Shown here one piece after another: positions 9,401 through 48,201 of a stretch of 64,000 bases of DNA; the stretch's first letter is position 1; every line of letters starts with the position of its first letter. The notes under the pieces are model-generated. The model saw nothing but the letters and a program-made list of their open reading frames with translations. It ran no database searches and was not told where the DNA came from. The stretch lies in the NCBI RefSeq assembly GCF_036588685.1, contig NC_086380.1, positions 70,184,001 to 70,248,000 on the forward strand, read 5' to 3'. The position numbers and the translations under genes are program-made. The DNA comes from Mytilus trossulus. Lineage: Eukaryota.

Positions 9401-12400
9401 GGAAGTTTCAGTTTACAGTTTTTGGTCAAGGTAGTTTTTGATGACGCTGAAGTCCAATCAACTTGAAACTTAGTTCATATGTTCCCTATAGTATGATCTT
9501 TCTAATTTTAATGCCAAATTAGATTATTACCCAATTTCATGGTCCATGGAACATGGAAAAGGATAGTGGAAGTGGGGCATCCGTGTACTTTGGACACATT
9601 CTTGTTATACACTGCAAAACATGTTTGCGTCGTATAATGCTATCATGCCGTTCGAAGGCACATTTAGTTTCCGGACAATAACTTTAGTTTTAGTGAATGG
9701 ATCTTTATAAATTTTTACCAGAAGGTTCAATACCCTAAAGGAAGGTTGGGATTGATTTTGGGGGTTATGTTCCGAATATTTCTTTAAAAACAATAACTTG
9801 TGTTTAATTGTACGAATCTCTCTGAAATTATACCACGAGTTTCCATACCATGAAGGGATAGTTAGTATTGACGTTGGGATGTTATGGCTCAAATTGTTTA
9901 GAAATTAGGGGCAAAACAAGGGGAAAACTAGTTTTTTCTGGTCAATGGACAATTAAGACAATTTAAAAGCAGTGTAAGGGAGGTAATTCAAAAAAAAATA
10001 ACATACAATGTTGAGTATGTTCGGATAAACCTCCCTTACACAACTTGCAAATTATGTATAAAGGAATGTCAGGTTTGAGACTAATTTTTATATTGCAAAA
10101 AAGGGGGTGGTAGTAGTTTAAAACAAAATTTCACAAATTTCACAAAATTCAAGTTTTTTAAAAGTTGGAGGAAGAAATCTTTAATTGCACAATATTGTGC
10201 AATAGATTTGTAAGATCTAGACTTTTGTTTTGTGTAAGAATCTCATATTATGTCAAACATTGTATCACAAATTCAGAGCTGTATCAAGAGCTTGAATATT
10301 GACTGTGTCCATACTTGCCCCAACCGTTCAGGGTTCGACCGCTGCGGTCGTATAAAGCTGCGCCCTGCGGAGTACCTGGTTAAATCTAGGTTTATGAATA
10401 CACATGTTGGCTCTGGTCACTTGAACTTTCAATAGAAAAATATTGTCTTTTCGAGATTACACATGTAACAATTAAATAGGTCTGTCTGTGTAGGTTTAAA
10501 AATTAAAGATGGAATTTTTATTAAATAGTTATCTTTTTATCTCCCACACAATGCGCTGTGAATGACATAGAAATACCGGGCTTATGTCTGTCCGTCCGGT
10601 CCTGTAAGCGCTCTCATCTGTACAATGTTTGTCACATTTTTAAGAAGCTTTAAATTGTAGGTTCATATAAACAATGTCTGAACGAGTTCGAGAATCAGTC
10701 CCCATCAATATTTTTTTTAAAGAGTTATGGGCCTTTAAAACATTATTTATGTGCAAACATTGCGTTGGTATCATTCTGATTTGTTTCATTCTTGCCAAAT
10801 TAAATGAAACTTATATCATATATAAAAAAGAAGATGTGGTATGATTGCCAATGAGACAATTGTCCACAAGAGACCAAAATAACACAGAAATTAACATCTA
10901 TAGGTCACAGTACGGCCTTCAACAATGAGCAAAGCCAATACCGCAGAGACAGCTATATAAGACCCCGAAATGACAATATAGAACAATTCAAACGAGAAAA
11001 CTAACGACCTTATTTACATAAAAAAAATTAACAAAAAACAAATATGTAACACATAAACAAACGAAAACAACTGAATTATAGGCTCCTGACTTGGGACAGG
11101 CACATACATATCTGCATTGTCTTCGAGTTCGAAAATCAGGATGATCTATATATTTTTTTTTTAAAGTTATGCCCCTTGGAAACATTAATGATATGGAAAA
11201 TCGTTAACGCTCTCAAACGTAACATTCGCCTTTTCAGAATCTAAAGGAATGTGGGTAATCTCATTGTTCGTACACCAAACTGAAAATAATGTTACGTCAT
11301 TGGTTGATGAAAATAAACTGTAACTTATATTATAGGTTTATTTCAGCAATATTTTGGATGAGTTGGGAAATTGTTGCCGAATTTTGTCCTTAACATAGTA
11401 TTATCTTGTCTTCAAGTTGATATTCTTACATGTTCCCAATCATATCGAAGAAACGAGAAAATTTGATAGTAGTGGGCAGTAATTGACAAAGACGTTATTG
11501 CAGAAAGCGAAATCGCGAAATGAATTTGATTTTCGATTTCACGATTTTGCGGGTTTTTCTCCATTTCCGGTTACCATATTTTTGGCATGCAAGATTGGTT
11601 TTATCTTTTTTGGAAAATGTATTAAATTAATGTGTAAATATTATGCCTTATACTTCTTACAGAACCTGAAAAGGAGAAGTCAATATCAGCGATCTGTCCT
11701 CAATACCAACAGTCTGATTTCATGAACAACAACCACTGTCGAACCAAATTAATAGCACCACAGAAGTCTCAAAACCACAAAAACATTTGTGCAAAAATTT
11801 TCCATGAAGTGGCTCAACAAACAGACGAAAATAAAACTGAAAATGTACGGAAATCACCAGAAGTCCGAAACAACGTTTGTGCCTCAAAAAGCAAGACGCG
11901 CTTTATAAATGACGAAGATGAAAACAGTACAACGCAGAAGACTCAAAAGCAAGACACAATTTGTGCAAAAATATTTCATGAAGTTTCACAACAAACAGAC
12001 GAAAATAAAGCAGAAAAATCGAGAAGATCACTAGAAGTTCCGGAAGACGTTGATATAACTGTAGATAGCCCCAGATCACTACCTTTCCAAATTATAGAAT
12101 CATATGGCAACGTGAACGAGGCAGAAATTCACGGAAGGATAGACAAGGCTTATGAAAGCAGTAACACTAGTGTTAATAATGATGCTGAGTCTTTAAGAGG
12201 GGAAGAGAAAGATGATAATCAAGGTAAAACAGGTAAATCCACTAGCGTCAGCACCTCGTAATAAAAGATTTACTACTGAGGGGATGTAAACGCACAGGCA
12301 CTTGTCCCGAACCCCTATAAACCTTATTATCGCTATTTTGTGCATTTTTCCAATCTGTTTTTGTGATAATTTTTCATATTATGCTACTCGTCTAAGATGG

Positions 12401-15400
12401 AAAAGTATCGCTAGAAACTAAGGAGGCACGTTGCATTGCTAAGGAAATTGACATCGTCGTCATAGGTAAAATAGCGATAAACAGATTATCATTGGTCATC
12501 TCAACTCGATTGATTTTCTCGCTTTCGCCGTACCGGCTCAAGCGAGAAAACTAGTCAATCTCGTTGAGATGATCAACAATAATCTATAAATATAACAATA
12601 AGGTATATGATTTGTTTTCTTAGTTTATAGACATGGACTACTCACGAGGGTCTCGCATGGTCAGCAATGAGAGATTTATATAATTAAGTAGTGCCCTATC
12701 AGCATTAAAGAATATATTACTTCAGGAATAGATAACCGTAGCTTTATTTGACAAAACTTTTAGGAATGTTGGTCCTCAATGCTCTTCAACTTTTTACTTT
12801 ATTTGTACTTATTTTTATTACTTTTTGGGATTCGAGCGTCACTGACGAATCTTTTGTAGACGAAACGCGAGTCTTGTGTATAACAACAAAATTAAATCCT
12901 GGTATCTATAATAAGTTTATAATGAATTCGATTTTTCCTAATTTTTAGAAAGTAATGAAAGATACGCTAAAAGATCTATTTTCCGGTTCTCGTAAAAACT
13001 GTTGCTCTTTAATGCAGTGGCAAATATTAGAAAGCTGGAAGTTTTGTCTATATACATTTGATTAATATAAAAAAAACAAGAAGATTGGGTATGATTGCCA
13101 ATGAGACAAATCTCCACAATAACCCAAATTGACACAGAAATTAACAACTATTGGCCACCGTACGGTCTTTTACAATGAGCAAAGGCCCATACCCCATAGT
13201 AAGCTATAAAAGGCCCCGTTTGTTTGTTGTTTGATATTTACTATCATTGTTTGCTATTGTAGTGTTTTACTTGACTCTGTGTTCGAGTTGTTGTTGATTT
13301 ATAGAGTTATCTACTCTTTATGTATTCGCTAAGTGAAACGTTGTGAGGTCACCCATTAAAAGTCCGAATCAGTCCGTTTGTCTAGCACAAAAACTGGATG
13401 TGCTTATATCTCAACAATGTGTAACCGTTCAAGCTATAATATTCGCACTGGTCATTATGCAACCACCAATCAATATTTCTAGTTTACATGTCCAAATCAA
13501 AAATGAAAAAATACAATGCTTCAATCGGTTGAATCAGGAGTGGATGGGGATCTAGGGTTGGGGATTACTTTTGGGGAAAAATGATTATTGCAATATCTAT
13601 TTTGTGCCGTGTTGTACGAAAAAAAAATTAGCATTGTATTTCATTACTTATAGTTTAAAAGGTTGAGCAAAATGGTAATATCCAGGTCAGGATACACCCA
13701 GTTTACAATAGATTTAATCTAAGTAATAACGTAGTCTTGGTATGTTTTTATTCACCAAAAATTTAATTTATGGCTTGTGCATTTCAGAGAGCGAAATTTA
13801 TCTAGAAGAAAGTTTTGATGGTGAGATGAAGGAGGTAGTTAACGTTTTAATAGAGGTTGAAAAAACAGGACCATTAGAACAAAAGGTAGTTAACTAAACA
13901 GATATGTCTAGTTCCACACGTATTTTAAATGTTATTTTTGTATTTGTTTAAATTGCCTTGTTAGTATATTTGAATCACAGCCGATCGTAGAAATATATCG
14001 CACCAGTGTCAGAATTTCTTTTTCTTTTGTGATTATATAAACAATCACTTTCTTACAAATGGTTGTTCATTTTTTTGCTGATCGTCTTCAAAACAAATAT
14101 GCCCAATTTTTATCAGTGACCAGAGGATTATAGTTATCGAACCACCCGTTGATTAATTGATTGGTCTTTAACGGTCAGAGGTCTTGTCTATATTATGGTG
14201 GACAGCTTTTACTGGTGTATGAAGTCGGAGTTACAAGCTAAGGGAGATAAACTGAAGTCGGAGTTACAAGCTAAGGGAGATAAACCGACCAGCAGCAGGA
14301 AAGCTGCCCATCCACGTCAGTTAAGTCGACGCACCTGGTACGGGCTCGTTGATAATTAAATATAAAATACATAGGAAAGTATAACTTTTCTTGTTTATCC
14401 TCATTCTATTAATATTATTGAAATAAAAAAATACAGTATCGGGATCTTTTAATAATAATGATAAACAAATGTAAAAATATTTATGTGAAACAATGCTAAA
14501 ATTTGTGTCATTATAGATTTCAAATAAAAGACTAAGTAGTGAAAAGGGAATCAATCCAGACACGATAAGCGAGCACGGGTTGGCCAATACCACTGGTAAG
14601 TAATCTTTATACAAGTTATTCCTGATTTTCTGTAAAAAAGGAAGAAAACGAATTTATTTGTAAACGCAACACAAACTATATACACGTTAAAGTAATTCAG
14701 ACCAATGCAAACTCAGATTGCATTTATCTTTAATTCGCATGACTGATACATGTATCAAAAACCATTGTCACTTGATCAAATTGGTTCCGAACTTTCCCCA
14801 TTTATTCAAATATGTTTAGAAGATTTAGATGCAGTATCTATAAATCCAAAAGATATTATTTTCAAAATTCGCCTCAATGACATTTTATAATTTTATTAAC
14901 ATGTAATATTAACACTAAACAAAGACATTATATAGATATAGGAAGATGTGGTGTGAGTGCCAAAGACATTATACCTGTTTTCAAAGGCCCTTAGTCTTAC
15001 TGCCATGGCTTTATTTATCGAAATATACCTTTGAAGAACTTTCCAAAAAAGAAATAGTTGAAGATTAATATTTCAGAACATTCTTCTAAAAGAAAAGAGT
15101 GCCAGAATATCTCTGAGCAGTCTAAATTCCAAAGAATGGACAGAGGAATAGACGAAAATCACGATAAGTATTGCGAGATAAATAACACAGCAATGGATGA
15201 AAATAAAGACGAGGCTGCGCAGATAAATTACAAAGATGATCTGTTAAAGGTTGGAAATATAGTCGCCGTAAGGCCATATACCAAGAGAGATTATAAACCT
15301 GGACGACCATGGATTGCTTCACTCAAGGAGATCGGTACAAGAAATGTTAAAGTCGTATGGTTGAGTGGATCATACGATACAAAGTGGATTGAGGATCCCA

Positions 15401-15516
15401 TATATTTCCCTCATTCAATTCCACGGAAACAAGTGGAATGCAGCTTTGTTTACGACTATCAGCAACCGTTACCGGAAGTTATAATTTCCCGGTTGAAGAA
15501 AATATACAAAGACTGA
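3484..15516 (+). CDS. Uncharacterised five-exon protein (438 aa) with C-terminal Tudor/BAH/PWWP-like beta-barrel; exons 3484-3622, 11663-12223 (alternative donor 12232), 13788-13885, 14517-14595, 15077-15516
   Basis: All four introns GT-AG with pyrimidine-rich acceptors and matching phases (1,1,0,1); spliced length 1317 nt = 439 codons with no internal stop; joins ORFs 3484, 11722 and 15058 of the track. Linking exon 1 across 8 kb is the weakest part. Confidence 0.7.
3853..3985. mobile_element. 133-bp foldback MITE with 9-bp TSD (MULE- or Academ-type)
   Basis: Almost entirely palindromic (TAGTCCAAATGATTATGAC...GTCATAATTATTTGGACTA); CGTCATGGC duplicated at 3844-3852 and 3986-3994. Confidence 0.85.
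4249..4530. mobile_element. Probable PIF/Harbinger-type MITE
   Basis: Imperfect TIR TGCTGAGTTCACACG / CGTGTGAACGAGGCA, TCA/TAA flanks, many internal AATTCGAATT palindromes. Confidence 0.55.
4908..7700. mobile_element. 2.8-kb Mutator-like (MULE/foldback) non-autonomous element
   Basis: Long TIRs (~4908-5170 and ~7485-7700) starting GGCATACTGTAAAACATGG and built of ATGGT/ACCAT pentamers; 9-bp TSD AAAGATTTG at 4899-4907 and 7701-7709. Confidence 0.9.
8410..8960. repeat. Two oppositely oriented copies of an interspersed repeat (AAAATTGAGAATGGAAATGG... family; also ~1410-1520)
   Basis: ~8410-8550 is the reverse complement of the motif series seen at ~8750-8960 and 1410-1520. Confidence 0.6.
9148..9606 (+). 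mobile_element. Helentron-associated non-autonomous element (HINE/DINE-1-like)
   Basis: 5' TTTTTATGCCCC subterminal repeat with nearby inverted GGGCAT, (GTCC/GTTC)n microsatellite, two ~169-bp internal tandem units (9245, 9414), 3' GGGGCAT + short hairpin (GTGT..ACAC) + CTTGTT end. Confidence 0.8.
9605..10382 (+). mobile_element. Second HINE-like element abutting the first
   Basis: 5' TTATAC..GCAAAA / TTTGCGTCGTATAA inverted motif; 3' GCGGTCGTATAA + GC-rich hairpin + CTGGTT end. Confidence 0.6.
10828..11110 (+). repeat. High-copy interspersed repeat (GATGTGGTATGATTGCCAATGAGACA... family); other copies ~13078-13218 (+), ~18410-18560 (-), ~30320-30430 (+), ~50750-50945 (+), ~60575-60868 (-)
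   Basis: Shared motifs ATTGCCAATGAGACA, TACGGCCTTCAACA, CAGCTATAAAAGGCCCC, GGCTCCTGACTTGGGACAGGCACA recur across the window. Confidence 0.8.
12327..12589 (+). mobile_element. ~270-bp TSD-less hairpin element, copy 1
   Basis: TTATCGCTATTTT...AAAATAGCGATAA internal inverted repeat followed by a ~105-nt 3' hairpin; closely similar copies at 30438-30704 and 38345-38619. Confidence 0.85.
12724..12915 (+). repeat. Hammerhead-ribozyme-bearing repeat fragment (core at ~12835-12879 partly degenerate)
   Basis: GCGTCA-CTGACGA-ATCTTTTGTAGAC-GAAAC-GCGA-GTC; core retained but stems I/II mismatched; flanks homologous to 31332-31648. Confidence 0.65.
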
Positions 15517-19368: not shown

Positions 19369-22300
19369 TTAATAAACACAAAGGAATCTGAGGAACGGCG
19401 TTATTTCGGAATCAAAAACATCATTATATGAATCAAAGTACATAAGAGGATTATCGGACGTGATCTTTATCAGCCCCGAACATTCCTTATACGTTGATTT
19501 TGATACCAGACAGCTAGGTTGACACATTACACCGTTTGAGTCGTACACCCTAACGTATGCTTTTGTTTCAACAGATATTGGCTTCTCGAAGGCAATAAGC
19601 GCAATAGATTCAGAGGAACGAGTGCGCTCATCTATAGAAATGTAGTCCAAATGTCTACCGCTATAGGAAAATCCATCAGTTTGAAATGTAATGTTAAATG
19701 TTCTTTTGTTTATAATTTCATTTCCTAAGTTTCGATTTCTCTTGTGTTTGCTTATGATTATTATTGGGGTGGTTGCAAAATTGTCGAATTTATATTTAGT
19801 ACTACTCAAAGAAACAAATTTTCTCATCTCTTGTCTCAGGCGAAGATTTATATCAAATCCAATTTTGACATTATTGCCTGTTAAACTAAAATCAACAGAT
19901 CTGCGACCCCTTGTTCCAGGATTATCGAAGTGCGTACTAAATCTTCTCGTAATTGTTGGCGCTTTTGAATTTCGAGTTAGTTCACTGTTCTCTTTAGCTC
20001 CGAATGCTGATATGTCTGGTAGAGATCCTAGTGCCTGTTCTATATGTGATGCAGCTACAAATCCGCCTCCTATCTGTGGGGCATCTCTATAACTTCCTTC
20101 TATTCGCGATGCATCTCCATGTCCACCGCCTATCTGTGTTGAGGCTCCCATTCCATTTCCTATCTGTGATGCCCACTCCTGTCCGCCTCCAATCTGTGTT
20201 GAAGCTCCCATTCCACCTCCTATCTGTGATGCCCACTCCTGTCCTCTTCCTGTCTGTGTTGAAGCGCCCATTCCGTCTCCTATCTGTGATGCCAACTCCT
20301 GTACGCCTCCTATCTGTGTTGAAGCTTCCAAACCGTCTCCTATCCACAAGGCACTTCTTTGTCTCCCTTCTATCCGTGATGTAACTCCGTGTCCGCCTCC
20401 TATCTGTGATACCCACTCTTGTCCTCCTCCTGTCTGTGTTGAAGCTCCCATTCCATCCCCTATCTGTGTCACATCTCCATGTCCTCCGCCTATCCAAAAG
20501 TCACTTAATTGTCTCCCTCCTATCTGTGTTGCATCTCGTATTCCGTCTCCTATATGTGATGCATCTCCATATCCTCCTCCTATCCCTAAGCCACCTCTAT
20601 GTCTCCCTCCTATCTGTGTTGAATCTCCATGTCCTCTTCCTATCCCTAGATCACCTCTATGTCTCCCTCCTTTCTGTGTTGCATCTCCATGTCCTCCTCC
20701 TATCCCTAGATCACCTCTATGTCTCCCTCCTATCTGTGTTGCATCTCCATGTCCTCCTCCTATCCCTAGATCACCTCCATGACTCCCTCCTTTCCGTGTT
20801 GCATCTCCATTTCCTCCTCCTATCCCTAAGATACCTCTATGTCTTCCTTCCATATTTGATGCATCTCCATATCCTCCTCCTATCCCTAAGCCACCTCTAT
20901 GTCTCCCTCCTATCTGTGTTGAATCTCCATGTCCTCCTCCTATCCCTAGATCACCTCCATGACTCCCTCCTTTCCGTGTTGCATCTCCATTTCCTCCTCC
21001 TATCCCTAAGATACCTCTATGTCTTCCTTCCATATTTGATGCATCTCCATATCCTCCTCCTATCCCTAAGCCACCTCTATGTCTCCCTCCTATCTGTGTT
21101 GCATCTCAATGTCCACCTTCTATCTGTGTTGTATCTCCTATTCCGTCTCCTATGTTTGATGCATCTCCATATCCTCCTCCTATCTCTAAGCCACCTCTTT
21201 GTCTCCCTCCTTTCTTTGTTGCATCTCCATGTCCTCCTCCTATCCCTAAGTCACCTATATGTGTTGCATCTCCAAGTCCGCCTCCTATCCCTAGATCACC
21301 TCTATGTCTTCCTTCTATATGTGTTGCATCTCCAAGTCCGCCTCCTATCCCTAGATCACCTCTATGTCTTCCTTCTATATGTGTTGCATCTCCAACTCCT
21401 CCTCTTATCCCTAGATCACCTCTATGTCTTCCTTCTATATGTGTTGCATCTCCAAGTCCTCCTCTTATCCCTAGATCACCTCTATGTCCACCTCCTATCT
21501 GTGTTACATCTCCAAGTCCGCCTCCAATCTGTGATGCCCACTCCTGTCTGCCTCCTATCTTGATCAATGATGAAATAGCTTGCTGACCCAAAAGTTGGTT
21601 AAGATTCATGAAAAATCTTGGAATTGTGACCCTTTTTCCCTTTTCCTTTGACGGGTACCAATTCCGAACTGTTCTAAATCCTTTAAGACCAATAAACTCA
21701 TACCGAGATCTGGAAACACATGCCTGTTTACTTATATCACAGAACAAAAAGCCATTAAATGCTCCTCCGCAGTTGTTACGACAAGTTGGGGCAGGTGCAT
21801 ATCTATAAATTTGTTTTGTAAATGAATTACTAAATCCTTGAATGTTTGTTTTTTGAGGTCTCAAATTATCCACAAGTCTATTTGGCATATGCTCTAATAT
21901 AGTAGTTGGTGGATAGTCTGTTTCTGAATTAATTCCTAATTTGGTTTGGCATTCTCTGAATTTTTCCCATAGGTAGTCTATGAAGCAGTGGTGAAGCCAG
22001 AAAATTGGGTCCATAGGACTTAAAGTTATATCTGCCATATGGCCAGTATTTCCTCCAACCCACCTGTGAACATCATCATGGTGTGACTCTAGATTGGCCT
22101 GATCACTATTTGGAGCTGTTGGTCTTAGAATTTCCCGGTGGTATCTTTTTCTAAACACTGCTTTTAACCTGTCTGGGTCAATGGGAGAGCCTTTTATTCC
22201 TAGTTCACGTCGTAACAACGTACTTGGTTTTGTTGGAGTTGACCAATATGCGAATGGACCTGTATATACAACTCCTTTTGGGTTCCCCAAAAATATTTCA

Positions 22301-25300
22301 GTAAATAAGATAGAATCCTCTTGATTGTCCATCAAAAAATCTGGTCTTGAATTCCAGTATGGAAGAGTCACTCCGCTATTATATTCCCGAAGAGCCTCCT
22401 CGAATCTGTCTCAATAGAAATGTGGATATTAAAGCGAGTCGTCAAAATTAATCAATTCAAAGAATAGAATAAGTAGGTAAAGTCACTTGCATGTATTGAT
22501 TAAGTACTGCAAAACTAAAAATTCTGCGATGTTTTCCTTATTGCGAAAATTGCGAAGAAATAGGTATCACTTTGTATGCAGCATTTAATGAAATAATCAA
22601 CATGAGTTCGCTCGCATTTTTGACAATTCTTCAAAAATGTGCATTATGAATATATCCAAATTTATATTATCATGATTAATATTATAAGTACAACATTTTA
22701 TAAATTTTATAAAAATAAAGAAAACATTAGTACACCGTGCTCAATAGTCATAATTCGATTATGCAAAACAAATCCAGGTAACAAACGGAAACTTCAACAA
22801 AAGCAAAGGGCAACATACATGGAAACGGACTGTAGATAACAACTGCTTGGTACAGGACATTTTCAGAAAATATGGGGGGGGGAGGTGTGAACCTGGTTTT
22901 ATGGCTAACCAAACCTCCAATGGTAGAAACACAATAGCGCTAAAATGAAAACACTACGTGACAGCAATACAGGACAAACAAACGTTTGAACACTCAACAC
23001 GAATATATACATAAATAAAAGATATAGTCATAGTACATAACAACATGTAAACCGCAGAAAAACAACGGACACTTCCCATGAATTTACGACAGCCCACCAT
23101 GCAGGACACCAGAAACGAATTAAAACTCAGCGTCATATGAAATGATCAACGCCACAACAAGGTACAATTTTAAAAATTCGGTTATTTTATTTATGGACAC
23201 TTAACACGAATTTTTAATTGGGAGAGAGTTTTTTATTGTGTCACTTAATTTCTTTTCTAATCATGTCGGTTTTTCTTTTAAATCAAAACTGTGTATCAAC
23301 ACAAAAAAAAATCCTGTGCGTATAGTTGCTTTAAACTTCAAATCATATATAATGAAGTAGCCAATGTTTTTTTTGTATCTTAACTGTCACATACATATAG
23401 AAAATAAAAAAAAAACAGATAACTGTAATATATATAATGCAAGATCATGTCTGACCAAACAGTAAACAGTATTATTGTTTCTTACGTAAAAATAAACTCA
23501 TCATAAGGCCACACCAATTTGATTCCTTGTTCGACGGACCCGCCCGCACCTATTTTTTTCAAAACAGAATTTTTTTTATTTTTATTATTTTCCCGCTTCC
23601 CGCATCCGGAAATGAAATCATGTCCATTTCCCGCACCGTTTTTTTGTAAATATTATAAAAAGATCTCAACATTTGTTTATAAAATCACAGTCTAGGCTTT
23701 ATATAACGATTTTAAACCTATCAGTACCCCACAACACTGTTAATATCTGCGAGAATGTTTGTTTCAGCTTGAAACCAATTTATTTCACCTGGGAGTGCTC
23801 CGATATAAATATATAACCGGACCAGTACAGAACAAAACGTTGGTTTCTTTCCCCCTAACTTATATTCCCTATAACAAAATGTTCGTTGTTAAAATAAAGT
23901 ACAAAGAACTTCTGAAGGATTTGCCTTCAACTGCAATTATAATGTATGATGACGATCATACCTGCTGCAGGTTTGCGCACCTGTCCAGGTTTATTCAGGG
24001 ACCTGTTGTTCAGCCGTTATCGTTTGTTGATGTGGTTCATTGGTATTTTCCCGTTTGGAAATATAAATTAGATCGTTGGTTTTCCTGTTCGAATTGTGTA
24101 CAATACTAAGTTGTGGTCCCTTATAGGTTGCTGGTTGGTCTGGATCAAAGCTCTGTGTACTTTGACCTATGTTTGTTATTATCAGGTTGAGAACAACCCT
24201 CCCTCAGACAAGGGCCCTGAAGGGGTCATTTTACCATGTTTACTGATGTAAAAAAGAAAATAGAAATACTAAGGATTTGTATAGTGCTACTATACAAAAC
24301 CTTTGACAACTTAGAATGTTTTTCTCAAAAAGAGGAGAAATACATCATATGTTAAACCACTTTTCTAGAAGAGGGATGGGTCCACTTACATTTTTTTTAT
24401 TTTGAATATTTAAACTGTTAAAGTAAAGGTGTTAACAAGGTTAAAGTCCAGGAATATTACAAAATTTTTGGACATGTTTTGACCATTTAATACCAAATAT
24501 TATAGTTCTTTGGGAAAATATTAGCCCTTTTGTACTTGAAGTTTTTTTACAAAAAAAAATATATTATAAATTATACATGTTATATGACCCCTCATAAAAG
24601 GGATATTCATTACATTAAAAGGGTTGTTCTGAACCTAATTATGACTTGGATGGAGAATTGTCCTATTGTCAGTCACACATACATAGACCAGATTTAATTA
24701 TTCAATTATTTCTTGTTGAATGGAAGGGAAAAAATATTTCATAAATTAAAGAAATGTCAAGGTACAAGTGATAAATCAAGTTTTAATATAGTCAAAACCT
24801 ACTATTTCATATTAACAAAAAAAATTATAATCGCTCGCCTTTACTTTTTAAGCTTCGCCTCAAAAATTTGCAAATTAAATATTTTTTTATTAAAATTTTC
24901 AAATCGCTCGCTCGCCCCAATTTTTGAAGTCCAAAAATCCGTAGAACAAGAAATTAAATTGGTGTGGCCTAAGTGTAATCAGTACTTAAACCATATAGAA
25001 AGCCAATGGGGTCAAAATTCTTAATTCGTAACTTGTCAATTTGTAACGTGTAGTTGTGTACTTTCATAATTCGTAATGCGTGAATTGTCAGTTTGTAACT
25101 TGTATATTTGTAATTTCAAAATTGTTAATTCGTAAGTTGTCAATTTGTACATTGTAACTGTGTGATTTCGACATTCTTTATCAGTAAATTGTCAATATTT
25201 GTATTGATGTTTGTAACGTGTAACTTGTCGACTCGTGAAATGTCTATGTGTGAAATGTCAATGTGTTAAATGTTGTCGTTGTACTATGCTAACGATCATT

Positions 25301-28300
25301 ATGACGAAAGATGACGCTCGGTTTCTTCTTCGTGTAGTACAAAATCTATCTGTAAGTAGGAGCACCTTCATATGGAGTATATACCTAGTAATTTAAATCA
25401 ATTATGTTCAGCAAATACCGCAAACAAAAATATGTTTATGAAGACGACAGGTGGCGTTTCGTACAAGCGGAAACTATATAAAAATTCAATGAGTTGGTAA
25501 CATATAAATATTTCCCGCCCATATGTCAAGAAATGAGGCTATTGACAAACAATGTTGTATTCCGCCTGTCTCTTCGAACGAGCAGTGAGTCAGGACCCAA
25601 GGCTACCCGTTTACGTTTCAAAATAACTCAAGACATAACCCCTCGGGGCCAGACTCTAAATAATGTGCAAATATCATCATGGAGAAATACAATTACAAAT
25701 TACAAATGCAAATGGCGAGATGGTGAAATCTTTTCTAACAAGTCAAAGAGTAGGGTGTCACTTTGGCTAAAAGTAGATGTAGGTTACAATTTTTGTAAAA
25801 AAAAAACAGTTTCTTAGTTTAACGATATTGGTAATTGACAAATTATTCATAAGGTACACCTCCTAGTTTATTTCGATCTATCTAGGAATATGTTGTGGAT
25901 ACCAATACTGGCTGTAATACAGTGGTAAAGAGAGCGCAGTCGATGTATTGACGGTGCACGAGAGCAGTTTCTGATCATGAACCGCTGTCAACGCTCGGTG
26001 TGAGCACTGCATTTTTTCAAGGTGGTTCTATTCGATTATAAGTACTGTTTTTAAGACAAATGAGGTAAACTAATGAGGTATTTTGTTCGTTGAGATCTTA
26101 AAACACTTTGTGTAGTTCTTGACCTTTCTTTCACAACATTGCTTGACTGATAATTGTTTAATCCCTTGGCATTTGCCATCTGTCGCCACAATGATCGTTA
26201 GCATAGTACAACGACAACATTTAACACATCGACATTTCACGAATCGACAAGTTACAAGTTACAACACATCAATATACAAATTGACAATTTACCGATAAAT
26301 AAATTTGAAATCACACAGTTACAAGTTACAAATTGACAACTTACGAATTAATAATTTCAAATTACAAATATACAAGTTACAAACTGAAAATTTAAGCAAT
26401 ACGAATTATGAAAGTACACAAGTTCAAATTACGAATTGAAAAGTTAAGAATTAAGAATTTTGACTCCGCTGGCTTTTCATAAAACCATAGCCACTAATAT
26501 TATTCATTTGTGCGCGACACAGCAACAATATAACTCAAACAAAAATTGAAAAAGTGCTTATAAAGGCATTCAGATTTTGAAAACAAATTCCACTGACGTC
26601 ACAATAAGTTCCAAATCATATATATGAACCGAAGTTATAACAAAAATACTAAATTAACAAAGGCCAGAGATTAATGACTTGTAAAATAGACGCAGAAATA
26701 TAGCGGGACTAAACATGTTTGTGCAGTCTCAACATCCCCCCTATACTTCATGCCAACGACGAATAAACAACAACAAAACAGTGATACGCAGATATATAAG
26801 AACTCCGAGTCCGATGTTAGATTATGTAATAAAAGAAACAAAACGAAATGAAAATAATCAACACAAATTAACAAAGGACAACTAGCAGTTAATGACATGC
26901 GAGCTTCAGACCTCAAGAACTCAATTAAACTGATAGATATATTATGTCTTCATCGTATGCAACTTATACTTACAATACGCAATAATATCTGTGCCAGCTG
27001 ACAAAGTTTGGACCATCATGTGCAGATTTTCCAGCGCCTCCCTGGTGCATAAGTGCGAACGAATCATACTTGTTGGGTGAGACCGACTGAAAAATATTGC
27101 ATTGGTGATTAAACAAATTACATTCTTAATGACATATGTAACCTATAACTATGACATTGACGATTGAACAAATTAATTCTTAATGACATATGTTACAGTC
27201 CTTGGATGGTGTAAACTTCCCACGAACACCATACACCATTACACCATACACCTTGTACCTTTACACCATTCACGTTACACCTTTGCACCATACACATTAC
27301 ACCATACACCATACACCATTCCCCATTCAACATTTGCATCTACACGATTCGAAATTACCCGTAATGGAATTAAATTTCAAATATTAAGATTATTATTATT
27401 GTTTATGTTTACAATTCGAAAAATTAAAATAAAAGGAACTTCGTTTTCAACCAATGAAATGTCATACACCGTTCATTTACACCATTCCCAATCGCACGTT
27501 ACACAATCACACCATTCCTCATACACCATTACACCATTCCCCTTACACCATACACCATAGCACCATACACCTTACACTATTGCACCATATGCCATACACC
27601 ATTACACCATACACGTTTTTTGGGGAAGTTTACACCATCCAAGGGCTGTAACCAAAGAAAAAGACATTGGCGATTTAACAAATAACATTCTGAATGACAT
27701 GTGTAACCTAAAAAGTTGATATTGGCGATTGAACAAATTAAATTCTAAATGACATATGTAACCTAAAAAGTTTATATTGGCGATTGAACAAATTAAATTC
27801 TATATGACATATGTAACCTATAACTATGACATAGACGATTGCGCAAATTACATTCTGAGTGATATATGTAACCAAAAAAAAATGACATTGGCGACTGAAC
27901 AAATAACATTCTGAATGACATATGTAACGTAAAAATATGACATTGACGATTGAACAAATTACAATCTGAATGACATATGTAATCTAAAAAGTTGACATTG
28001 GCGGTTGAACAAATTACAGTCAGAATGACATATGTAACATAAAAATATGACATTGACGATTGAACAAATTCCATTCTGAATGAAACATGTTACCCCCAAA
28101 AAATTACATTAACGATTGAACAAATTATATTCTGAATGACATATGTAACCCAAAAATATGACATTGGCGGTTGAACAAATTACAGTCTGAATGACATATG
28201 TAACATAAAAATATGACATTGACAATTGAACAAATTACATTCTTATTGACCGATCTATTAGCCGTATTGGTCACCACTTTTTGGAACTTTTCGTCCTCAG

Positions 28301-29806
28301 TGCTCTTCAACTTTATAGTTGTTTTGGCTTTCGAACTTTTTTCATCTGAGCGTCACTTGTTAGTCTTGTGAAGACGGAACGCACGTCTGGCGCATTACAT
28401 TTAAAACCTGGTACCTTTTGTTAGCTATCAGACGTGTATTTCTGTCCTATATTTTTTTCAATTTATATGTATCGTAGTCCTGTCATGTAATGTTGTCCTT
28501 TTAATATTAAATTAGACATTGTTATTAAAGCGGGAAGTTTGGCATGCCACTAAACCAAGTTCAACCCACCATTTGTTTTCTTAAAATGTCCTGTACCATG
28601 TCAGGCAATTGCCATTGTTATATTATAGTTCGTTTATGTGTGTGTTACATTTCAATTCTGTGTTTTTGTGGTGTCGTAGTTCTCCTGTTATATTTGATGC
28701 GATTCCCTCGGTTTAGTTTGTAGCCCGGATTTGTATGTTTTTTCTCAATCGATTTATCAATTTCGAACACCGGTATACTTATGTTGGCTTTATATAACTA
28801 GAAAATTTGGCATAGTATGGCGATCGAACAATTTTCATTCTGCCATATATAACCAAATTATATGATTGCGTTAAATAACGAAAAATACGGACTGAAAGCG
28901 GAAGCTTCATTTATAAAAAACGAGAAGATATTTGTGTAGTGAAGATGACGGGTAAAAACAAACAGGACGGTTACACCTATATGGATGTATTGAAATTGGT
29001 AAAAAGGTTGTAAAATAAAATGTTATTCTATATACATGTTCTTTTTTAATTTAAAAATACTAAATATTTATCTATATACACTGATGAAGACATAACTCGT
29101 TACATTAAATGGAATCTCTTAGCAAAAGGACAATATAGATCGTAAAATAAAAAATACATTCAAGGAAATATTGAGTTTACCTTTATGAGTCGGAAGCAGT
29201 CTTTAGTTTAGGAATTTGTTATTTCAATCTGGTTAGTTTGTTTAAGATAGACAGACATCGTTGGTTGTTAAACAAAATATTGTTTTCAATATTAGACAGG
29301 CGTATGCACAAGTGGTTAACGCTGGATTTTACTTAATGTTTGATTCACCAGAATATATCTAGTTTTGGTAGTTATCAAACAAATTGAACGAAGAAAATTA
29401 TAGAAAATTCGAACTTTCTGATCGTTACCATGGTTACTTATAAACTTACCGTGTCACTTTTCAAGGCTTTTACTGCGTCGATGAACTTTTGAAATTCATT
29501 TTCACTCAATGTCCGTATTTCTTTCCTTACTCGCAATCTGTACCGTGTTTGTCGTCTCATGCGATAATGTAATTTTCTGCCGAGCGAATCGAGCCATTCG
29601 AAGGCATCCTTCCTTAAACCTATTGAGCTTTCATTGTTGTACATATGTTCCAAAAAACTTTCTAAACAGTTCTTTTGAACATCATATCGAGTGATGTTCT
29701 TATCAGCTTTTTCCAAGTAGCATTCTTCTAACTTTGGTGGAAACACATCTTCCATAATAAGCCCTGACGACGGTATAAGAGCCAGCAAAAGTAAATAAAA
29801 CGTCAT
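19369..29806 (-). CDS. Secreted tyrosinase-like (type-3 copper) protein with Gly/His-rich repeat insert; coding exons 29806-29450, 27086-26974, 22405-19369; in-frame TGA at 21108-21106
   Basis: Signal peptide MTFYLLLLALIPSSG; RVRKEIR motif; CuA His triad in the 113-nt exon missed by the ORF track (LMHQ..SAHDGPNFVSWHR); LPYWN; CuB HHDDVH...SPMDPIFWLHHCFID; GT-AG introns in phases 0 and 2; Cys-containing C-terminal domain. 589 aa to the TGA, 1168 aa if read through. Confidence 0.92.
20030..21560 (-). repeat. Coding minisatellite, 30-nt units (60- and 180-nt higher order) encoding IGGGHGDATQ / IGGRHRGDLG / IGGGQEWASQ decapeptides
   Basis: Column periodicity visible in the sequence; 20761-20880 is identical to 20941-21060. 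Confidence 0.95.
23507..24969. mobile_element. PIF/Harbinger-type non-autonomous element in tyrosinase intron
   Basis: ~32-bp TIR GGCCACACCAATTT.ATT.CTTGTTC.ACGGA, TAA TSD at 23504-23506 and 24970-24972. Confidence 0.85.
24184..24636. mobile_element. Nested MITE inside the Harbinger-type element
   Basis: TIR AGGTTGAGAACAACCC / GGGTTGTTCTGAACCT; interrupts a copy of the common interspersed repeat. Confidence 0.6.
24994..26481. mobile_element. 1.5-kb element with ~310-bp TIRs and 6-bp TSD (IS3EU-like termini)
   Basis: 24994-~25310 is the reverse complement of ~26180-26481 (e.g. GTACTATGCTAACGATCATT / AATGATCGTTAGCATAGTAC); TAT...ATA termini; AAACCA at 24988-24993 and 26482-26487. Confidence 0.75.
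27100..28243. repeat. ~55-bp tandem minisatellite (~12-13 units) interrupted by a MITE
   Basis: Unit AACAAATTACATTCTGAATGACATATGTAACCTAAAAATATGACATTGGCGATTG; copies at 27112, 27167, then continuous ~27650-28243. Confidence 0.9.
27196..27648. mobile_element. Tc1/mariner-type MITE with internal CACCATA/CACCATT microrepeats
   Basis: TIR CAGTCCTTGGATGGTGTAAACTTCCC / GGGAAGTTTACACCATCCAAGGGCTG, TA on both sides; splits a satellite monomer at GACATATGT^AACC. Confidence 0.85.
28247..28425 (+). repeat. Hammerhead-family repeat fragment, core degenerate
   Basis: GAGCGTCA-CTTGTTA-GTCTTGTGAAGAC-GGAAC-GCAC-GTC-TGGCGC at ~28348-28393. Confidence 0.65.
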
Positions 29807-37994: not shown

Positions 37995-39228
37995 TAAATA
38001 CAACATTGCAGGGACCAATTGCAACAATGAAGACGTTTGGAAAGGGTGTAGTGAGTTCAAACACATGTCGTGTATCCCAATCAGAACAAAGGGAACACAC
38101 AAGCTCCGATAAGTGTACCTTCTGGAACAAATAAACTCGATGCGATTAGTGTTAATTTGAAACATACAATACAAACAAACATGCCAAACGTACGAGGATG
38201 TACCTGCCTCCCTTATAGTAAAATGATATTTACAAGTGTTGTTAACAACCAAATAAGCGTTTTAAAGCCAGACGGTTCAGCTGATTTCGATCTGAACACA
38301 ATAGAACCTGTTTTGGACGTAGTATATATAGGAGATAAGTGTGTTTATCGCTATTTTGTGCATTTTTCCTTTGATCTTTTTTTGTGATAATTTTCATATC
38401 ATGCTTCTCGCTTGAGATGGAAAAATTATCGCTAGAAACTAAGGAGGCCACGTGGCGTTGCTAACGAAATTGACATTGAAATTGACAATGTCGTCATAGG
38501 TAAAATAGCGATAAACAGATAATCATTGGTCATCTCAACTCGATTGCTTTTCTCACTTTCGATGTACCAGCTCAAGCGAGAAAATCAATCTCGTTGAGAT
38601 AATCAACGATAATCTATAAAGCTTTTACATCAGGTGACATTACAAATTCAAAGAAGATCAATATAATCAATGTCGAAAACAGAAATGTAAAAAAAGTATT
38701 GAACTTCACTTCATTAAATGACTGAGTAGCATTCAAAGATGGAAAGTTGATTTATTGTGCCGGAGAGCAGGGACTAAAGATGATCAGTCTCAGTGATGTG
38801 CAGGAGAACAGGGACTAAAGATGACCAGTCTCAGTGATGAATCCATAACTAGTATCACCACTACTAAATTGTCAAGTCAGGCAAACGTAGATTCAAAAGG
38901 CGACAAGTTGTTCTATACAAACGAAGTCAATCATATTGTCACCTGCTGTGATTTCCATGATAAAACACTCTGGACATTCAGCGAACCCAGTGCTTTGAAA
39001 TTTCCATGCAGTTTATTTGTCGACAATGATGGGAACGTATTTGTGGCAGGAGCACAATCTCACAATGTGATCGTTATATCTATCGATGGTGAACGCTATA
39101 GACAAATATTATCACATAAAGATGGACTTGACTGTCCAACAGCTGTGGAGTACGACCGAATGAACAATAAACTTTTAGTTGCTAATTATAACGAAATCGC
39201 TTTCGTGTATGACGTTGTCGGACAATAA
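37995..39228 (+). pseudogene. TRIM-like B-box/NHL copy A: 5'-truncated pseudogene (NHL/beta-propeller part only)
   Basis: Homologous to the 3' half of 54688-56373; B-box region absent; 275-bp insertion at 38345-38619, GGA>TGA stop near 38724, 41-bp tandem duplication at 38757-38838. Confidence 0.9.
38345..38619 (+). mobile_element. ~270-bp TSD-less hairpin element, copy 3, inserted in coding sequence
   Basis: Removing it restores GGA GAT AAG TGT GT^A GCT TTT ACA TCA GGT (GDKCVAFTSG), colinear with paralogs. Confidence 0.9.
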
Positions 39229-43803: not shown

Positions 43804-46524
43804 TGATTCTTGTAGATTGTGGCTTGTTAAATCGGAAAATAAGTTTTGAAATTACCTCCACAATATATTAGATATGTAATGTAAATATGATCACATGACG
43901 GTTAAAGTCCTTTCTTTATCTAAAGTTTTGTTGTACGCTCATCAGAAAATCTGTGGTTTGTATAGATTTTATCTGTATACTTTACCTTATAATCTGAAGC
44001 ACTTTTTTCCATGTCTTTCTATTCCTAATACGCACTTATTTTAACCAAAACATTCTATTTTTCAGTTTTACGTTAACAAAAAGTTTAGCCAATAACCAGC
44101 TAACGGATCCCCTATTTGAAATAACTATTCATTTCAGTAGATATTTTCGTTTATCCTTCTTTGTCGCTTACGTTGACAGTATAAAATGCATGTATTTCAA
44201 TTTCTGTTTTTGATTTACTTCTGTTGAGATGCTATTTCAAACGTGTCTAACCATCGAATTTCAATTAGAAATAGATTTGGGTCAAATAAAGGAACTAAAC
44301 CTGTGTATAATTCCTTCACATGGTTTTTTTTTACCTGTGAGGACTGGAATATTCTTTAATTTCTATCAACATGATCAAAGATTATTTCTTTTAGAATATG
44401 TAAATAGAACACGGGTTGTTATAATTTTAATAGTTCTTGTTACAAACATGTTTTTAATTTTCAACAGTATTCGCCAATATGTGGCTGTCACATATCTTTA
44501 ATGAGTTTTTAAAAGATCATCCTGAAAGGCTGTAGAACGACTGAGAATTTTTGCATTGGGAATTAAATTCCATGAATGATATTTTTCATAAAACTTAATG
44601 CAAAGACAGGTTGAAACCATAAATATATGTAAAACATTTTATGGAAGCCTTAAATCAAAACATTTTGTCAAATGAACATTTGGAGTTTTTAGTCTGAACA
44701 AGGCCGTTGATTCATGTTAAGTTAGTTTATACTATTATTACATGTACACACTATTTAAATGTATTAATCAAAGAATTTGTTTCCTGACATTTCTTTTGGG
44801 GGGAGGGTCATGTTGCATACCGATGTTAAGCACTGTCGAACATGATTTAATTTTCCAGAAGCACGACACTTTGTGATATATTCGGGAGAATTATTTGTAA
44901 TTGTCAATCATAAGTTAGACGTTAAAAGAATTTTGAGTTGGCTTTTTTCCTTTCAACTTTAATCCATAATAATCGTAATTTTTCTAGAAACTAGGTGTGA
45001 CACGACTGTACATATTTGCGTGTAGATATGGAAATACGCATTATTTGCACTTTGGAAATTCTTGCCAAAATAGTAAACACAGATATGGACAAATCAAACC
45101 ACGGATATCCTAAAAAAAAATAGAATTATTTAGCCTGCATGTTACGCTAGACACAGTTAGTATCTTGTGTTTTAGTTTGCTTCCTTATTTGTAGCAAATT
45201 CATCTTAGCCTGACATTACAGATAGGTATTTATGCTATATAAGTTGATAAAATTTAAAAGGGATTCTTCTGAACAAAGCATATTGTTTGAAATGTAGTCT
45301 ATAAGAGAAAACGCCAACTTGTTCATTAAGACTCTACACTCCCATCAGTTTTAGAACGTCAGGCATCAACAATAAAGGACGAAAACAGCCAACTGAATCT
45401 CGTTACTCGCATCGATTCACATATTATAATATTGATATGAGATTCGACCAGAGAATACGTTTGTTGTTCTACCAGTAATTCCAATCGAAAAAGTAGGTAC
45501 AATTTTAATTCGAATTTTGGCCTGAATTGTAACTTGAATTCTTTCAATACATGTGAATGTCAAACAAGGTCGAATATATTATTCGGCTTTATAACGTTTT
45601 TAAATTAGCGTCACTGGTGAGTCTAATGTAGATGCGTTTTGCAGATAAATTATAAGTCTGGTTACTTTGATAACAATTATCAAAGTGTGACAAATGTTAT
45701 ATTTTAACCATTAATGGGCCGAATCGGTTTGTCTATCTGAACTGTTATAAAGTTTCATTAATACCATTGATGACAATTATTTTTGAAATATTTTTTTGGT
45801 TGCTTTTAGCATCGACTGGTAATATTAATTTAACAATTATACAGAAACTATCATTGGGTAATATCTCAATCTGCCAGATTAGAAAATACAAAAATCATTA
45901 TTTTCATTCGAAAAAATGTTCCATTATAAATAAATATCAATATGTATACGGCACTCGTTCTATTTGAGCAGTCAAAATGCGTTGACCGTATATTTCTATG
46001 TCCTGATATCAATTTTCCTTATGAATATTTCCCCGTTTCTAAGCCTAGTTCTTATATCGTTGATATGTCAAGTCAGTGCACTTTTATTGTCTATGAATAC
46101 GACAAATAGACATACGGGATGTCTGCGCCTATGTTTGAAAAAGGACGAGCTTTTTAAAAATGATGATATATAATTAACGGCATTTATATAGCAGATATAA
46201 AATATAGGTCCTATTAAGTTTGTTAGAGATACAATCATTAAAGATGTGGTGGGGGAATTGATTATTCATACATTTATTAACAAAACATTTATAGATTTTC
46301 ATAAATGGATTTATACATTTCAATTCATAAAACTTTGGATAGACCAGTCGAGTTCAGTGGGCTATAGTAGTGTTGGCATTACATGGATAAAGATCGAAGA
46401 TTCTAAAAATCGGTGAAAACAGTAAAAAAAATACTAAAACATGGTAAATTAAAAAAAACAATGATGATACTTTTGTATGGTACTATTGCAGTTTAATATT
46501 CACTTACTTTTACATTTCAGAATA

Positions 46525-48201
46525 ATGGCCAGTAACACGTATGTATGTGGTATCTGTGATCATCGTCACGTAACAAAACCTTCAGTAGTCTGGTGTTTTG
46601 AATGTGATGAAGGACTTTGTGAAGATTGTAAGGAACATCATAATTTCTCTAAGAGTTCACGAAATCACGAAACAGTTCCAATTACTGAATATATGAAATT
46701 ACCAGCCAATATTTTGCAAATAGCGCAATTTTGCAACAAACATAACGAGAAATACGAACTTTTCTGTAGAAAACATGACTTTCCATGATGTACGAAATGT
46801 GTAGAAGATCATAACGGCTGTAATGATTTAACTGATATCAGAAACATGATACACAATGTAAAATCTTCAACTGCTTTCCTTGAAATCGAACACGCTTTGT
46901 CAGGAATCGCCGAGGATATTAAAATATTACGTATAAATTGCGAAGGAAACTTGGCATCAATTGCAGAGAAAAGAAAGATTGGTGAATTGGAAATTCAACA
47001 ATTTCGAAGAAAAATTGATGCCCATCTTGATAAACTTCAAGACCACATACTGAAGGAAATTAAAGCGGTTGAAGAAAAAAAAAGTAGCCAAATTCGAGAA
47101 TTATTGACGTCAATAATGCAAAAAGAAACGGAAACTTTGGGAATCAAAATAAACTTTCAAAATACGAAGCGGTATGCCTCAGATCTGCAAACTTTCTTTG
47201 CAATAAAACACATCGAAAAAGATATTACCAAAGAGAATAATTATATTCAGTTGATCAGCAAAAGCGAACAAATGCATCAAATCGATATATCGTGTAGAAT
47301 AAATACAGCATTGAAGGAATTCATCGCTACCGTGACTACTTTTGGGGAGGTTTTAATTAGCTCTAATTCTTTAAATATATCCATTGAGAACAAATGGAAT
47401 AAACAAGCTCAAATAAGTTTACCTCCTTCAAGAACAATATTTGATAATGTTAGTCTGAAGTTGAAACAAACAATACAAACAAACTGGCAAGCTGTCCGAG
47501 GATGTACCTTTCTTCCTGATGGTAAAATGGTGTTTTCTACTATAAGTACACAACTAGCAAGAGTTTTAAAGCCAGACGGTTCATCTGAATTTGATCTGAA
47601 CAACATTGGACCTGTTTGGGACGTGGTCTATACTGGAGATAATGATGTAGCTACTACTTCAGGAAATAAAAATCAAATCAAGATAATCGATGTCGAAAAA
47701 AGAAAAGTGAAAAAAACTTTAAACGTCAATTCCGCCAATAACGGAGTGACAATCAAAAATGAAAAGTTGATTTATTGTGCACGAGATCAAGGACTTAAGA
47801 TGATAAGTCTTAGTGATGAATCTATAACCACTATCAGCACTAGTAACATGTCATTTCAGGCGTACGTAAATACCCAAGGCGACAAGCTGTTTTATTCAAA
47901 CGAAGAAAATCACAATGTCACCTGTATAAATTTCCAGGGTAAAACACTTTGGACATTCAACGAAAGCAGTACTCTAAAATATCCCTTCGGTATATCTGTC
48001 GACAATGATGGGAACGTATTTGTAGCGGGAACACATTCTCACAATTTGATCGTTATCTCCTCAGATGGTCGACGCTATAGACAACTATTATCGAAGAAAG
48101 ATGGACTTGACAGTCCAACAGTTGTGGAGTATGACCAATCAAATAATAAACTTCTTGTTGCTAATAATTTTGGTAACACTTTCGTGTATGAAGTTGTATG
48201 A
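46525..48201 (+). pseudogene. TRIM-like (RING-less B-box1/B-box2/coiled-coil/NHL) copy B; full-length frame with one TGA at 46786-46788
   Basis: Acceptor TTTCAG just before ATG; CGICDHRH..WCFECDEGLCEDCKEHH, FCNKH..LFCRKH; NHL motif PFGISVDNDGNVFVAG; the two track ORFs share one frame. Confidence 0.8.

What the first reader, a model, noticed from the sequence alone, without database searches (positions are those of the whole stretch)
19369..21560. Tyrosinase fused to a ~500-aa Gly/His decapeptide block: enzyme and structural protein in one chain
About 50 decapeptides lie between the catalytic domain and the C-terminal Cys domain, in two zones: His/Arg/Asp-rich (IGGGHGDATQ, IGGRHRGDLG), then Trp/Met-containing (IGGGQEWASQ, IGDGMGASTQ). 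A furin-like RGRR site follows. His-rich Gly repeats bind metals and are nucleophiles for quinone tanning in sclerotised invertebrate materials. This enzyme may therefore carry its own cross-linking or coacervating substrate for byssus, periostracum or shell matrix (inference).
Basis: partly seen in the sequence, partly recalled or inferred. Interest (0 to 1): 0.7.

Follow-up and report, generated by a model that had tools for sequence, protein, structure and literature searches.

The report
Mussel tyrosinase with runaway repeat loop
A mussel tanning-enzyme gene does carry about 50 copies of a ten-residue glycine-rich repeat, but in this genome a stop codon cuts the repeat short, and the repeat is likely a DNA stutter tolerated in a variable loop of the enzyme rather than a built-in building material.

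Summary
The repeat is real: 51 units (505 codons, 34% Gly, 5.5% His) in the last exon of a three-exon secreted Mytilus tyrosinase. RefSeq XP_063448397.1 avoids the stop only by skipping exactly one 30-nt unit. Seven intact close paralogs lack the array. Orthologs, including M. coruscus (21 open units), carry it at the same place, so it predates that species split. Changes between units are as often synonymous as chance predicts (16:45), unlike the folded domains (14:7). Unit number, zone order and charge differ between species, and the squid-beak GHGxY motif is absent. The linker is hypervariable family-wide, and an abalone shell tyrosinase with Gly-rich tandem repeats is already published. 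All 7 ortholog sequences found carry a lesion, though draft assemblies are error-prone. Best reading: a frame-preserving coding minisatellite in a tolerant loop of a probably dispensable paralog. A structural, cross-linkable role is not excluded (about 0.2).

The parts
29450..29806 (-). Exon 1 (coding): hydrophobic N-terminus (likely signal peptide), pro-region with Cys29/Cys47, RMRR convertase-like site (29563-29552)
   Evidence: ATG and GT donor located; identical to the N-terminus of XP_063448397.1; site list
26974..27086 (-). Exon 2: CuA histidines H133, H142, H151
   Evidence: AG/GT borders, 113 nt; motifs
21559..22405 (-). Exon 3, first part: rest of the tyrosinase domain with CuB H266, H270, H296, a four-Cys module and the start of the linker
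   Evidence: PF00264; pLDDT mostly above 90; Foldseek best E 1.3e-13 to Bacillus tyrosinase, TM by target 0.76
20044..21558 (-). 30-nt coding minisatellite, 51 units, 505 codons, I-G-G-x-x-G-x-A/S-T/S-Q type; His/Arg/Asp zone then Trp/Met zone
21106..21108 (-). In-frame TGA in unit 16 (GGA in sister units), codon 590
   Evidence: sister copies have C at 21108 on the + strand
21087..21116 (-). 30-nt GT..AG stretch (one repeat period) that the RefSeq model leaves out
   Evidence: 23 such GT..AG 30-mers exist in the array
19912..20043 (-). Post-repeat linker shared with paralogs, partly predicted to be ordered
   Evidence: paralog sequences; pLDDT 95-96 in the two ordered 10-residue blocks at about residues 951-970 of the 1158-aa model
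19900..19911 (-). RGRR convertase-like site, family-wide
19369..19899 (-). C-terminal domain, predicted beta-sandwich with four Cys, then TAA
   Evidence: only generic Ig/Fn3-like matches, best Z 6.6, rmsd 3.5 over 103 residues

Best explanation
This is a Mytilus-specific copy of a secreted tyrosinase gene in which a 30-base DNA repeat likely expanded by slippage inside the enzyme's variable linker loop and is likely tolerated rather than selected as a material, and in this assembly a stop codon in unit 16 ends the protein at 589 residues. Shown: gene structure, six copper histidines, the array, the stop, paralogs without the array, orthologs with it. Inferred: the intact allele makes a ~1170-aa precursor cut at RMRR and RGRR by a furin-like convertase. 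That would leave the catalytic core with a long disordered Gly-rich loop, with the beta-sandwich released or held as a lid. Selection has kept the frame and the folded domains but not the residues, number or order of the units. Inferred with less certainty: the paralog is now dispensable and carries loss-of-function alleles, of which this TGA is one unless it is an assembly error. Because the stop lies in the last exon, a truncated enzyme with a 150-residue tail could still be made.
For: Unit-to-unit single-base changes are 16 synonymous to 45 non-synonymous, against a neutral expectation of 25-28% synonymous. They differ from the domains' 14:7 private changes (Fisher p=0.0015) and from omega 0.4 (p=0.0002). 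Third codon positions are as invariant as first and second (for example ATA 46 of 50). M. coruscus has 21 units, 1.9% Asp against 7.3% here, 0 RGD against 6, and Trp/Met units first instead of last. Among 116 of 201 fetched proteins with both domain motifs, the crudely measured linker spans 45-385 aa apart from this gene (633) and one mis-fused model. P0165, P0169 and P0124 carry unrelated tandem repeats at this place. Length changes seen are in frame (one 15-nt unit here, two 9-aa units in M. coruscus). Lesions: 7 of 7 ortholog sequences found are broken (window, P0021, P0024+P0003, P0002, P0056, P0057, P0059). Run X2's 97.8%-identical contig has a 1-base insertion at 22275 and X6's has E263K at a nearly invariant residue. 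5 of 5 shown sites where the window differs from all three other organisms change the residue, including PYWD to PYWN (D in 120 of 132). 4 of the 11 closest paralogs in G000 are broken.
Against: The array has stayed in frame and Gly-rich since before the coruscus/trossulus split, both unit types are shared, and disordered functional blocks often show neutral-looking substitution (own knowledge). The event count comes from a minimum spanning tree of 40 distinct units and is rough; 17 multi-base changes were left out. Ortholog differences in the catalytic region are 8 synonymous to 8 non-synonymous (p=0.042 against neutral), so the gene was constrained until recently. The 0:5 recent count is small (P=0.21 under neutrality, 0.038 under omega 0.4) and rests on the 40 of 217 rows shown. 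Draft-assembly models are often broken anyway. The edulis and coruscus breaks fall in one A-run that is gap-free in contigs of 4 of 4 runs, so they may be assembly errors. X1 and X3 show no gap in the catalytic-region pieces listed. An abalone tyrosinase with G-rich repeats is a real shell-matrix component.
Confidence: 0.6

Rival explanations
1. One reading: the repeat is a selected structural block. After cleavage at RGRR it stays on the enzyme and anchors it in a quinone-tanned matrix through His cross-links, metal binding or Arg/Asp-driven condensation. The TGA is a private null allele or an assembly error.
For: Array conserved in position and frame in M. coruscus and other orthologs. 24 His in zone 1 and 10 RHR motifs. 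Predicted disordered, pLDDT below 30 for most of 541-934. Precedents: abalone nacre tyrosinase with G-rich tandem repeats (PMC6003135) and nacrein's Gly-X-Asn insert (PMC4066178). Run X1 has no contig of 99% or more likeness across the stop.
Against: Neutral substitution pattern; zone order, Asp content and unit number not conserved. Tyr 1%, Lys 1%, Cys 0, aromatic 2.6%; GHGxY 0, no paired His. Many broken ortholog sequences.
Confidence: 0.22
2. The gene is already a pseudogene across the genus and the array is a free minisatellite in dead sequence.
For: 7 of 7 ortholog sequences broken; frameshift in X2; no intact full-length ortholog other than the unit-skipping RefSeq model in three homology searches and one profile-library search.
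Against: Omega against paralogs 0.32-0.64, like paralog pairs; 14:7 private changes. 8:8 among ortholog differences. One stop in 505 codons while the other two same-strand frames hold 61 and 22. Splice sites and six His intact. Fragment-led clusters can hide full-length members, as P0021 hid P0036.
Confidence: 0.12
3. The stop is bypassed in this individual by a true 30-nt micro-intron, as in the RefSeq model, giving a 1158-aa fusion.
For: GT..AG borders at 21116-21087 remove the stop in frame; XP_063448397.1 is otherwise identical, 1158 of 1158 residues.
Against: The skip equals one repeat period, and 23 such GT..AG 30-mers exist in the array. It is purine-rich with no pyrimidine tract and shorter than usual animal introns (own knowledge). 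Reads from a sister unit or from an allele one unit shorter would align the same way.
Confidence: 0.06

Closest known systems
Haliotis laevigata shell tyrosinase CLC_123/idb_32947 (PMC6003135; passages read)
   Same: Secreted molluscan tyrosinase domain followed by a predicted disordered block of G-rich tandem repeats.
   Different: There the repeats form the C-terminus and the protein was found in nacre matrix. Here they sit in an internal linker before a folded domain, the allele has a stop, and no protein evidence exists. Sequences were not compared.
Mytilus two-domain secreted tyrosinases (for example XP_052064331.1, XP_063398804.1; paralogs L002-L007, L009)
   Same: 67-75% identical over the N-terminal and catalytic part; same Cys pattern, same two RxxR sites, same C-terminal domain.
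   Different: Short non-repetitive linker; last exon 502-512 codons against 1012.
Nacrein / N66 (carbonic anhydrase split by Gly-X-Asn repeats; PMC4066178, passages read)
   Same: Secreted shell enzyme with a Gly-rich repeat insert that differs or is absent between species.
   Different: Different enzyme; the nacrein repeat has a reported effect on calcification, while nothing has been tested for this one.
Squid histidine-rich beak proteins HBP-1/2 (PMC6884462; abstract and passages read)
   Same: Gly/His-containing disordered modular repeats.
   Different: Their phase separation needs GHGxY and Tyr; this array has 0 GHGxY and 1% Tyr.
Mytilus edulis byssal tyrosinases Medu-TYR1-17 (PMC11667028; sections 8 part 1, 10, 13 part 1 read)
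   Same: Secreted mussel PF00264 enzymes.
   Different: Listed lengths are 393-805 aa and no repeat block is mentioned. Their sequences were not in the supplement text, so no direct comparison was possible.

Membership tests
Type-3 copper tyrosinase (PF00264) | Pfam match above the curated cut-off | tested here: met
   124.4 bits against cut-off 22.6
Type-3 copper tyrosinase (PF00264) | Six copper-binding histidines | tested here: met
   H133, H142, H151, H266, H270, H296
Type-3 copper tyrosinase (PF00264) | Tyrosinase fold | tested here: met
   Foldseek E 1.3e-13, TM by target 0.76, rmsd 3.4 to 4j6u
Type-3 copper tyrosinase (PF00264) | Monophenolase or diphenolase activity | not testable with these tools
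   Needs an enzyme assay
Coding minisatellite (VNTR) in a tolerant linker | Head-to-tail units with a period that is a multiple of three | tested here: met
   30-nt period with 60/120/180 super-periods
Coding minisatellite (VNTR) in a tolerant linker | Copy number and order vary between genomes | tested here: met
   51 units against 21 in M. coruscus, zone order reversed; assembly collapse not excluded
Coding minisatellite (VNTR) in a tolerant linker | No amino-acid-level constraint on units | tested here: met
   16:45 synonymous to non-synonymous, equal to neutral expectation; rough count
Shell-matrix tyrosinase with G-rich repeats (Haliotis type) | G-rich tandem repeats C-terminal to the catalytic domain | tested here: met
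   34% Gly, 51 units
Shell-matrix tyrosinase with G-rich repeats (Haliotis type) | Protein present in shell, periostracum or byssus matrix | not testable with these tools
   No proteome search available
HBP-type His-rich coacervating protein | Repeated GHGxY motif with Tyr stickers | tested here: not met
   0 GHGxY, 5 Tyr in 505 aa; 0 and 1 in M. coruscus
HBP-type His-rich coacervating protein | pH-triggered phase separation | not testable with these tools
   Needs recombinant repeat
Nacrein family | Carbonic anhydrase domain | tested here: not met
   Only PF00264 found; the resemblance is architectural
RTX-type beta-roll repeat | GGxGxD nonapeptide (motif recalled) | tested here: not met
   0 matches; the beta-rich AF2 patch at 465-540 fits a known AF2 bias (PMC11795689, abstract)
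Byssal tyrosinases (Medu-TYR clades I and IV) | Orthology to proteomically detected byssal enzymes | tested here: inconclusive
   Table 1 best hits do not include this gene's closest named paralogs; sequences not available as text

The most novel reading that the evidence does not exclude
Intact alleles encode a self-anchoring tanning enzyme. After convertase cleavage, a 200-500-residue His/Arg/Gly loop stays on the catalytic core, is cross-linked by the enzyme's own quinones and locks it into periostracum or shell matrix. Minisatellite length and null alleles would act as a population-level dial on tanning.
Probability: 0.18. Interest if true: 0.6.

Novelty: new member of a known kind. Interest (0 to 1): 0.3.

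Why it matters
If the best reading holds, this is a clean example of how molluscan matrix enzymes acquire low-complexity blocks: a DNA minisatellite grows in a tolerant loop first, and any material role would come later. It also shows that RefSeq XP_063448397.1 hides a premature stop behind a one-unit 'intron', so that model should not be used as proof of the fusion. If the structural rival holds, it would give a testable self-anchoring enzyme for bio-inspired adhesives.

Tried and rejected
Expression: no RNA holder listed. The one guessed RNA run (X20) and X12 laid only one 47-48 nt piece on the 231-nt stretch tested. This says nothing either way.

Is the stop real? X1 has 0 differences in four long catalytic-region pieces. 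Of its 11 contigs on 21030-21260, only one is 99% or more alike and it ends at 21101. A 44-nt piece across the site has one difference and equals the sister copy at 20712, running through the branch point expected if TGA were present. This leans against TGA in X1, but contigs cannot show absence, a filter drops records, and X1 need not be the window's source. Unresolved.

X1 joints are explained by array parts outside the laid stretch and were not used. P0001 (1158 aa) looked like a long ortholog but is two tyrosinases joined, without repeats. The AF2 beta-roll at 465-540 was rejected as evidence. The C-terminal domain had no specific fold match (Foldseek none at E<=0.001; VIA best Z 6.6). ESM Atlas hits for the coruscus repeat were all 0.81 or lower, chance level. 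Origin of the unit from the ancestral linker: the best profile score fell in the linker in 6 of 7 paralogs but was weak (3-10 against at least 12.6 for true units), a hint only. Stop depletion in the array is not significant (1 against about 3.2 expected, P=0.17). Branch-specific dN/dS was not obtained; pairwise values were used.

Literature: a search for six accession strings found 0 papers. Topic searches showed no description of this gene in the listings; most subscription papers (Nagai 2007, Aguilera 2014) were not readable and bioRxiv supplements were not seen. PMC4003781, PMC4660305, PMC6641155 and PMC8063583 (passages) added nothing on repeat-bearing tyrosinases or on the species split date. 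Earlier-findings searches by sequence and by words were blank.

Full report
Observation. The minus strand from 22405 to 19369 is one exon in one frame. It holds the CuB half of a tyrosinase domain, an array of 51 units (50 of 30 nt, one of 15 nt; 21558-20044; 505 codons), a short linker with RGRR at 19911-19900, and a C-terminal domain. Two upstream exons (29806-29450, 27086-26974) add a hydrophobic leader, a pro-region ending in RMRR, and the CuA histidines; all six copper histidines are present. The ORF list already splits the exon in two: unit 16 has TGA where sister units have GGA (21108-21106, codon 590 of 1168).

Annotation. A cluster look-up returned M. trossulus RefSeq XP_063448397.1. 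It is identical to the spliced gene except that it omits 30 nt around the stop. The omitted piece has GT..AG ends, but it is exactly one repeat period, and 23 such 30-mers exist in the array. I read this as an annotation patch, not evidence of splicing.

Is the stop real? Two read-laying runs could not settle it. Run X1, with no differences in four long catalytic-region pieces, has no near-perfect contig across the site. Its 44-nt piece there equals a sister copy with the Gly codon. Contigs cannot show absence and X1 may be another animal. A private allele and an assembly error both remain open.

Relatives. The own genome gave 77 matches to the catalytic exon. Seven intact close paralogs (L002-L007, L009) have last exons of 502-512 codons with a short plain linker, and four more (L008, L010-L012) are broken. 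Orthologs carry the array at the same place. M. coruscus CAC5423244.1 has 21 open units joined to the C-terminal domain; its neighbour CAC5423245.1 is the N-terminal half (84% identical; same contig inferred from consecutive accessions and equal contig length). M. galloprovincialis VDI17945.1, P0057 and P0059 also carry units. An X2 contig joins the unique linker to the first units with one difference in 116 nt. So the array predates the coruscus/trossulus split.

How the repeat evolves. Among 40 distinct units, single-base changes on a minimum spanning tree are 16 synonymous to 45 non-synonymous (17 multi-base changes left out). Neutral expectation is 25-28% synonymous. The folded domains differ: omega 0.32-0.64 against seven paralogs and 14:7 private changes (Fisher p=0.0015). 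Gly (34%) and His (5.3-5.5%) are alike in the two species. Asp (7.3% against 1.9%), RGD (6 against 0), unit number (51 against 21) and zone order (His zone first here, Trp/Met zone first in M. coruscus) are not. The length changes seen keep the frame. This is the pattern of a DNA minisatellite held in frame.

The site. Of 201 proteins fetched, 116 had both domain motifs (many near-duplicates). Their crudely measured linker runs from 45 to 385 residues; this gene's is the longest at 633. Three unnamed members carry unrelated tandem repeats there. AlphaFold2 on a 90-sequence alignment gives confident catalytic and C-terminal domains and an ordered segment after the array, with pLDDT below 30 for most of the repeat. 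A beta-rich patch at 465-540 (pLDDT 72-80) is discounted because AF2 over-predicts solenoids for repeats (PMC11795689, abstract). The C-terminal domain is a beta-sandwich with only generic matches. The RxxR site before it is present in 18 of 18 family proteins checked, so it is not a feature of the insert. An earlier unreviewed note on other tyrosinases of this genome (e1-9819225) proposes that the pro-region and C-terminal domain form a disulfide-held lid. The Cys positions are conserved here; I did not test the bond.

State of the gene. All 7 ortholog sequences found have a lesion. Among four DNA runs, X2 shows a 1-base insertion in the catalytic region and X6 shows E263K; X1 and X3 show no gap in the catalytic-region pieces listed. 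Five of five shown sites private to the window change the residue. Against this: ortholog differences overall are 8:8 (16 sites taken from the 40 of 217 rows shown; p=0.042 against neutral). Draft models are often broken, and the A-run where two drafts break is intact in all four runs. The gene was functional until recently and is probably dispensable now. That fits the open mussel pan-genome, whose dispensable genes belong to young expanded families (PMC7653742, passages).

His is 5.5% with no paired His; Tyr 1%, Lys 1%, Cys 0; GHGxY, which drives squid-beak coacervation (PMC6884462), is absent. The block is a poor tyrosinase substrate, though His could still react with quinones made from other substrates (own knowledge). 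The concept has precedent: an abalone nacre tyrosinase ends in G-rich tandem repeats (PMC6003135), and nacrein carries a Gly-X-Asn insert (PMC4066178). This lowers novelty and keeps the structural reading alive.

Verdict. A real, apparently undescribed repeat expansion in one Mytilus tyrosinase paralog, interrupted by a stop in this assembly. Most likely a tolerated coding minisatellite (0.6); a structural block (0.22), a dead gene (0.12) or a true micro-intron (0.06) are less likely. New member of a known kind; interest 0.3.

Noticed in passing
window 38055-62637 (+), for example 46468-48201, 54583-56373, 60962-62637, 38797-39228: Tandem cluster of B-box / coiled-coil / NHL-type beta-propeller (TRIM-like) genes; one intact 596-aa frame, others split by stops.
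   Followed up: partly
window 20553-21498 (-): Six RGD motifs inside the HRGDLG units; none in the M. coruscus ortholog, so probably chance.
   Followed up: yes
window 51945-53041: Three perfectly identical 364-nt tandem copies (100% matches): very recent duplication or assembly artefact.
   Followed up: no
window 27647-28250: 55-nt minisatellite, about 11 copies, in intron 1 of the tyrosinase.
   Followed up: no
window 21140-21190: Many high-depth short contigs in all runs resemble this part of the array, suggesting a dispersed genomic repeat with a similar 40-50 nt word.
   Followed up: no
L008, L010, L011, L012: Four of the 11 closest tyrosinase paralogs in G000 have stops or frameshifts: rapid birth and death in this subfamily.
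   Followed up: partly
P0165, P0169, P0124 (unnamed): Other family members with independent tandem repeats (Pro/Asn 14-mer, Gly/Pro 14-mer, GGNNG) in the same linker.
   Followed up: partly
window 11638-12261 and 15058-15516 (+): Two open frames of 207 and 152 aa with no Pfam match above cut-off.
   Followed up: partly
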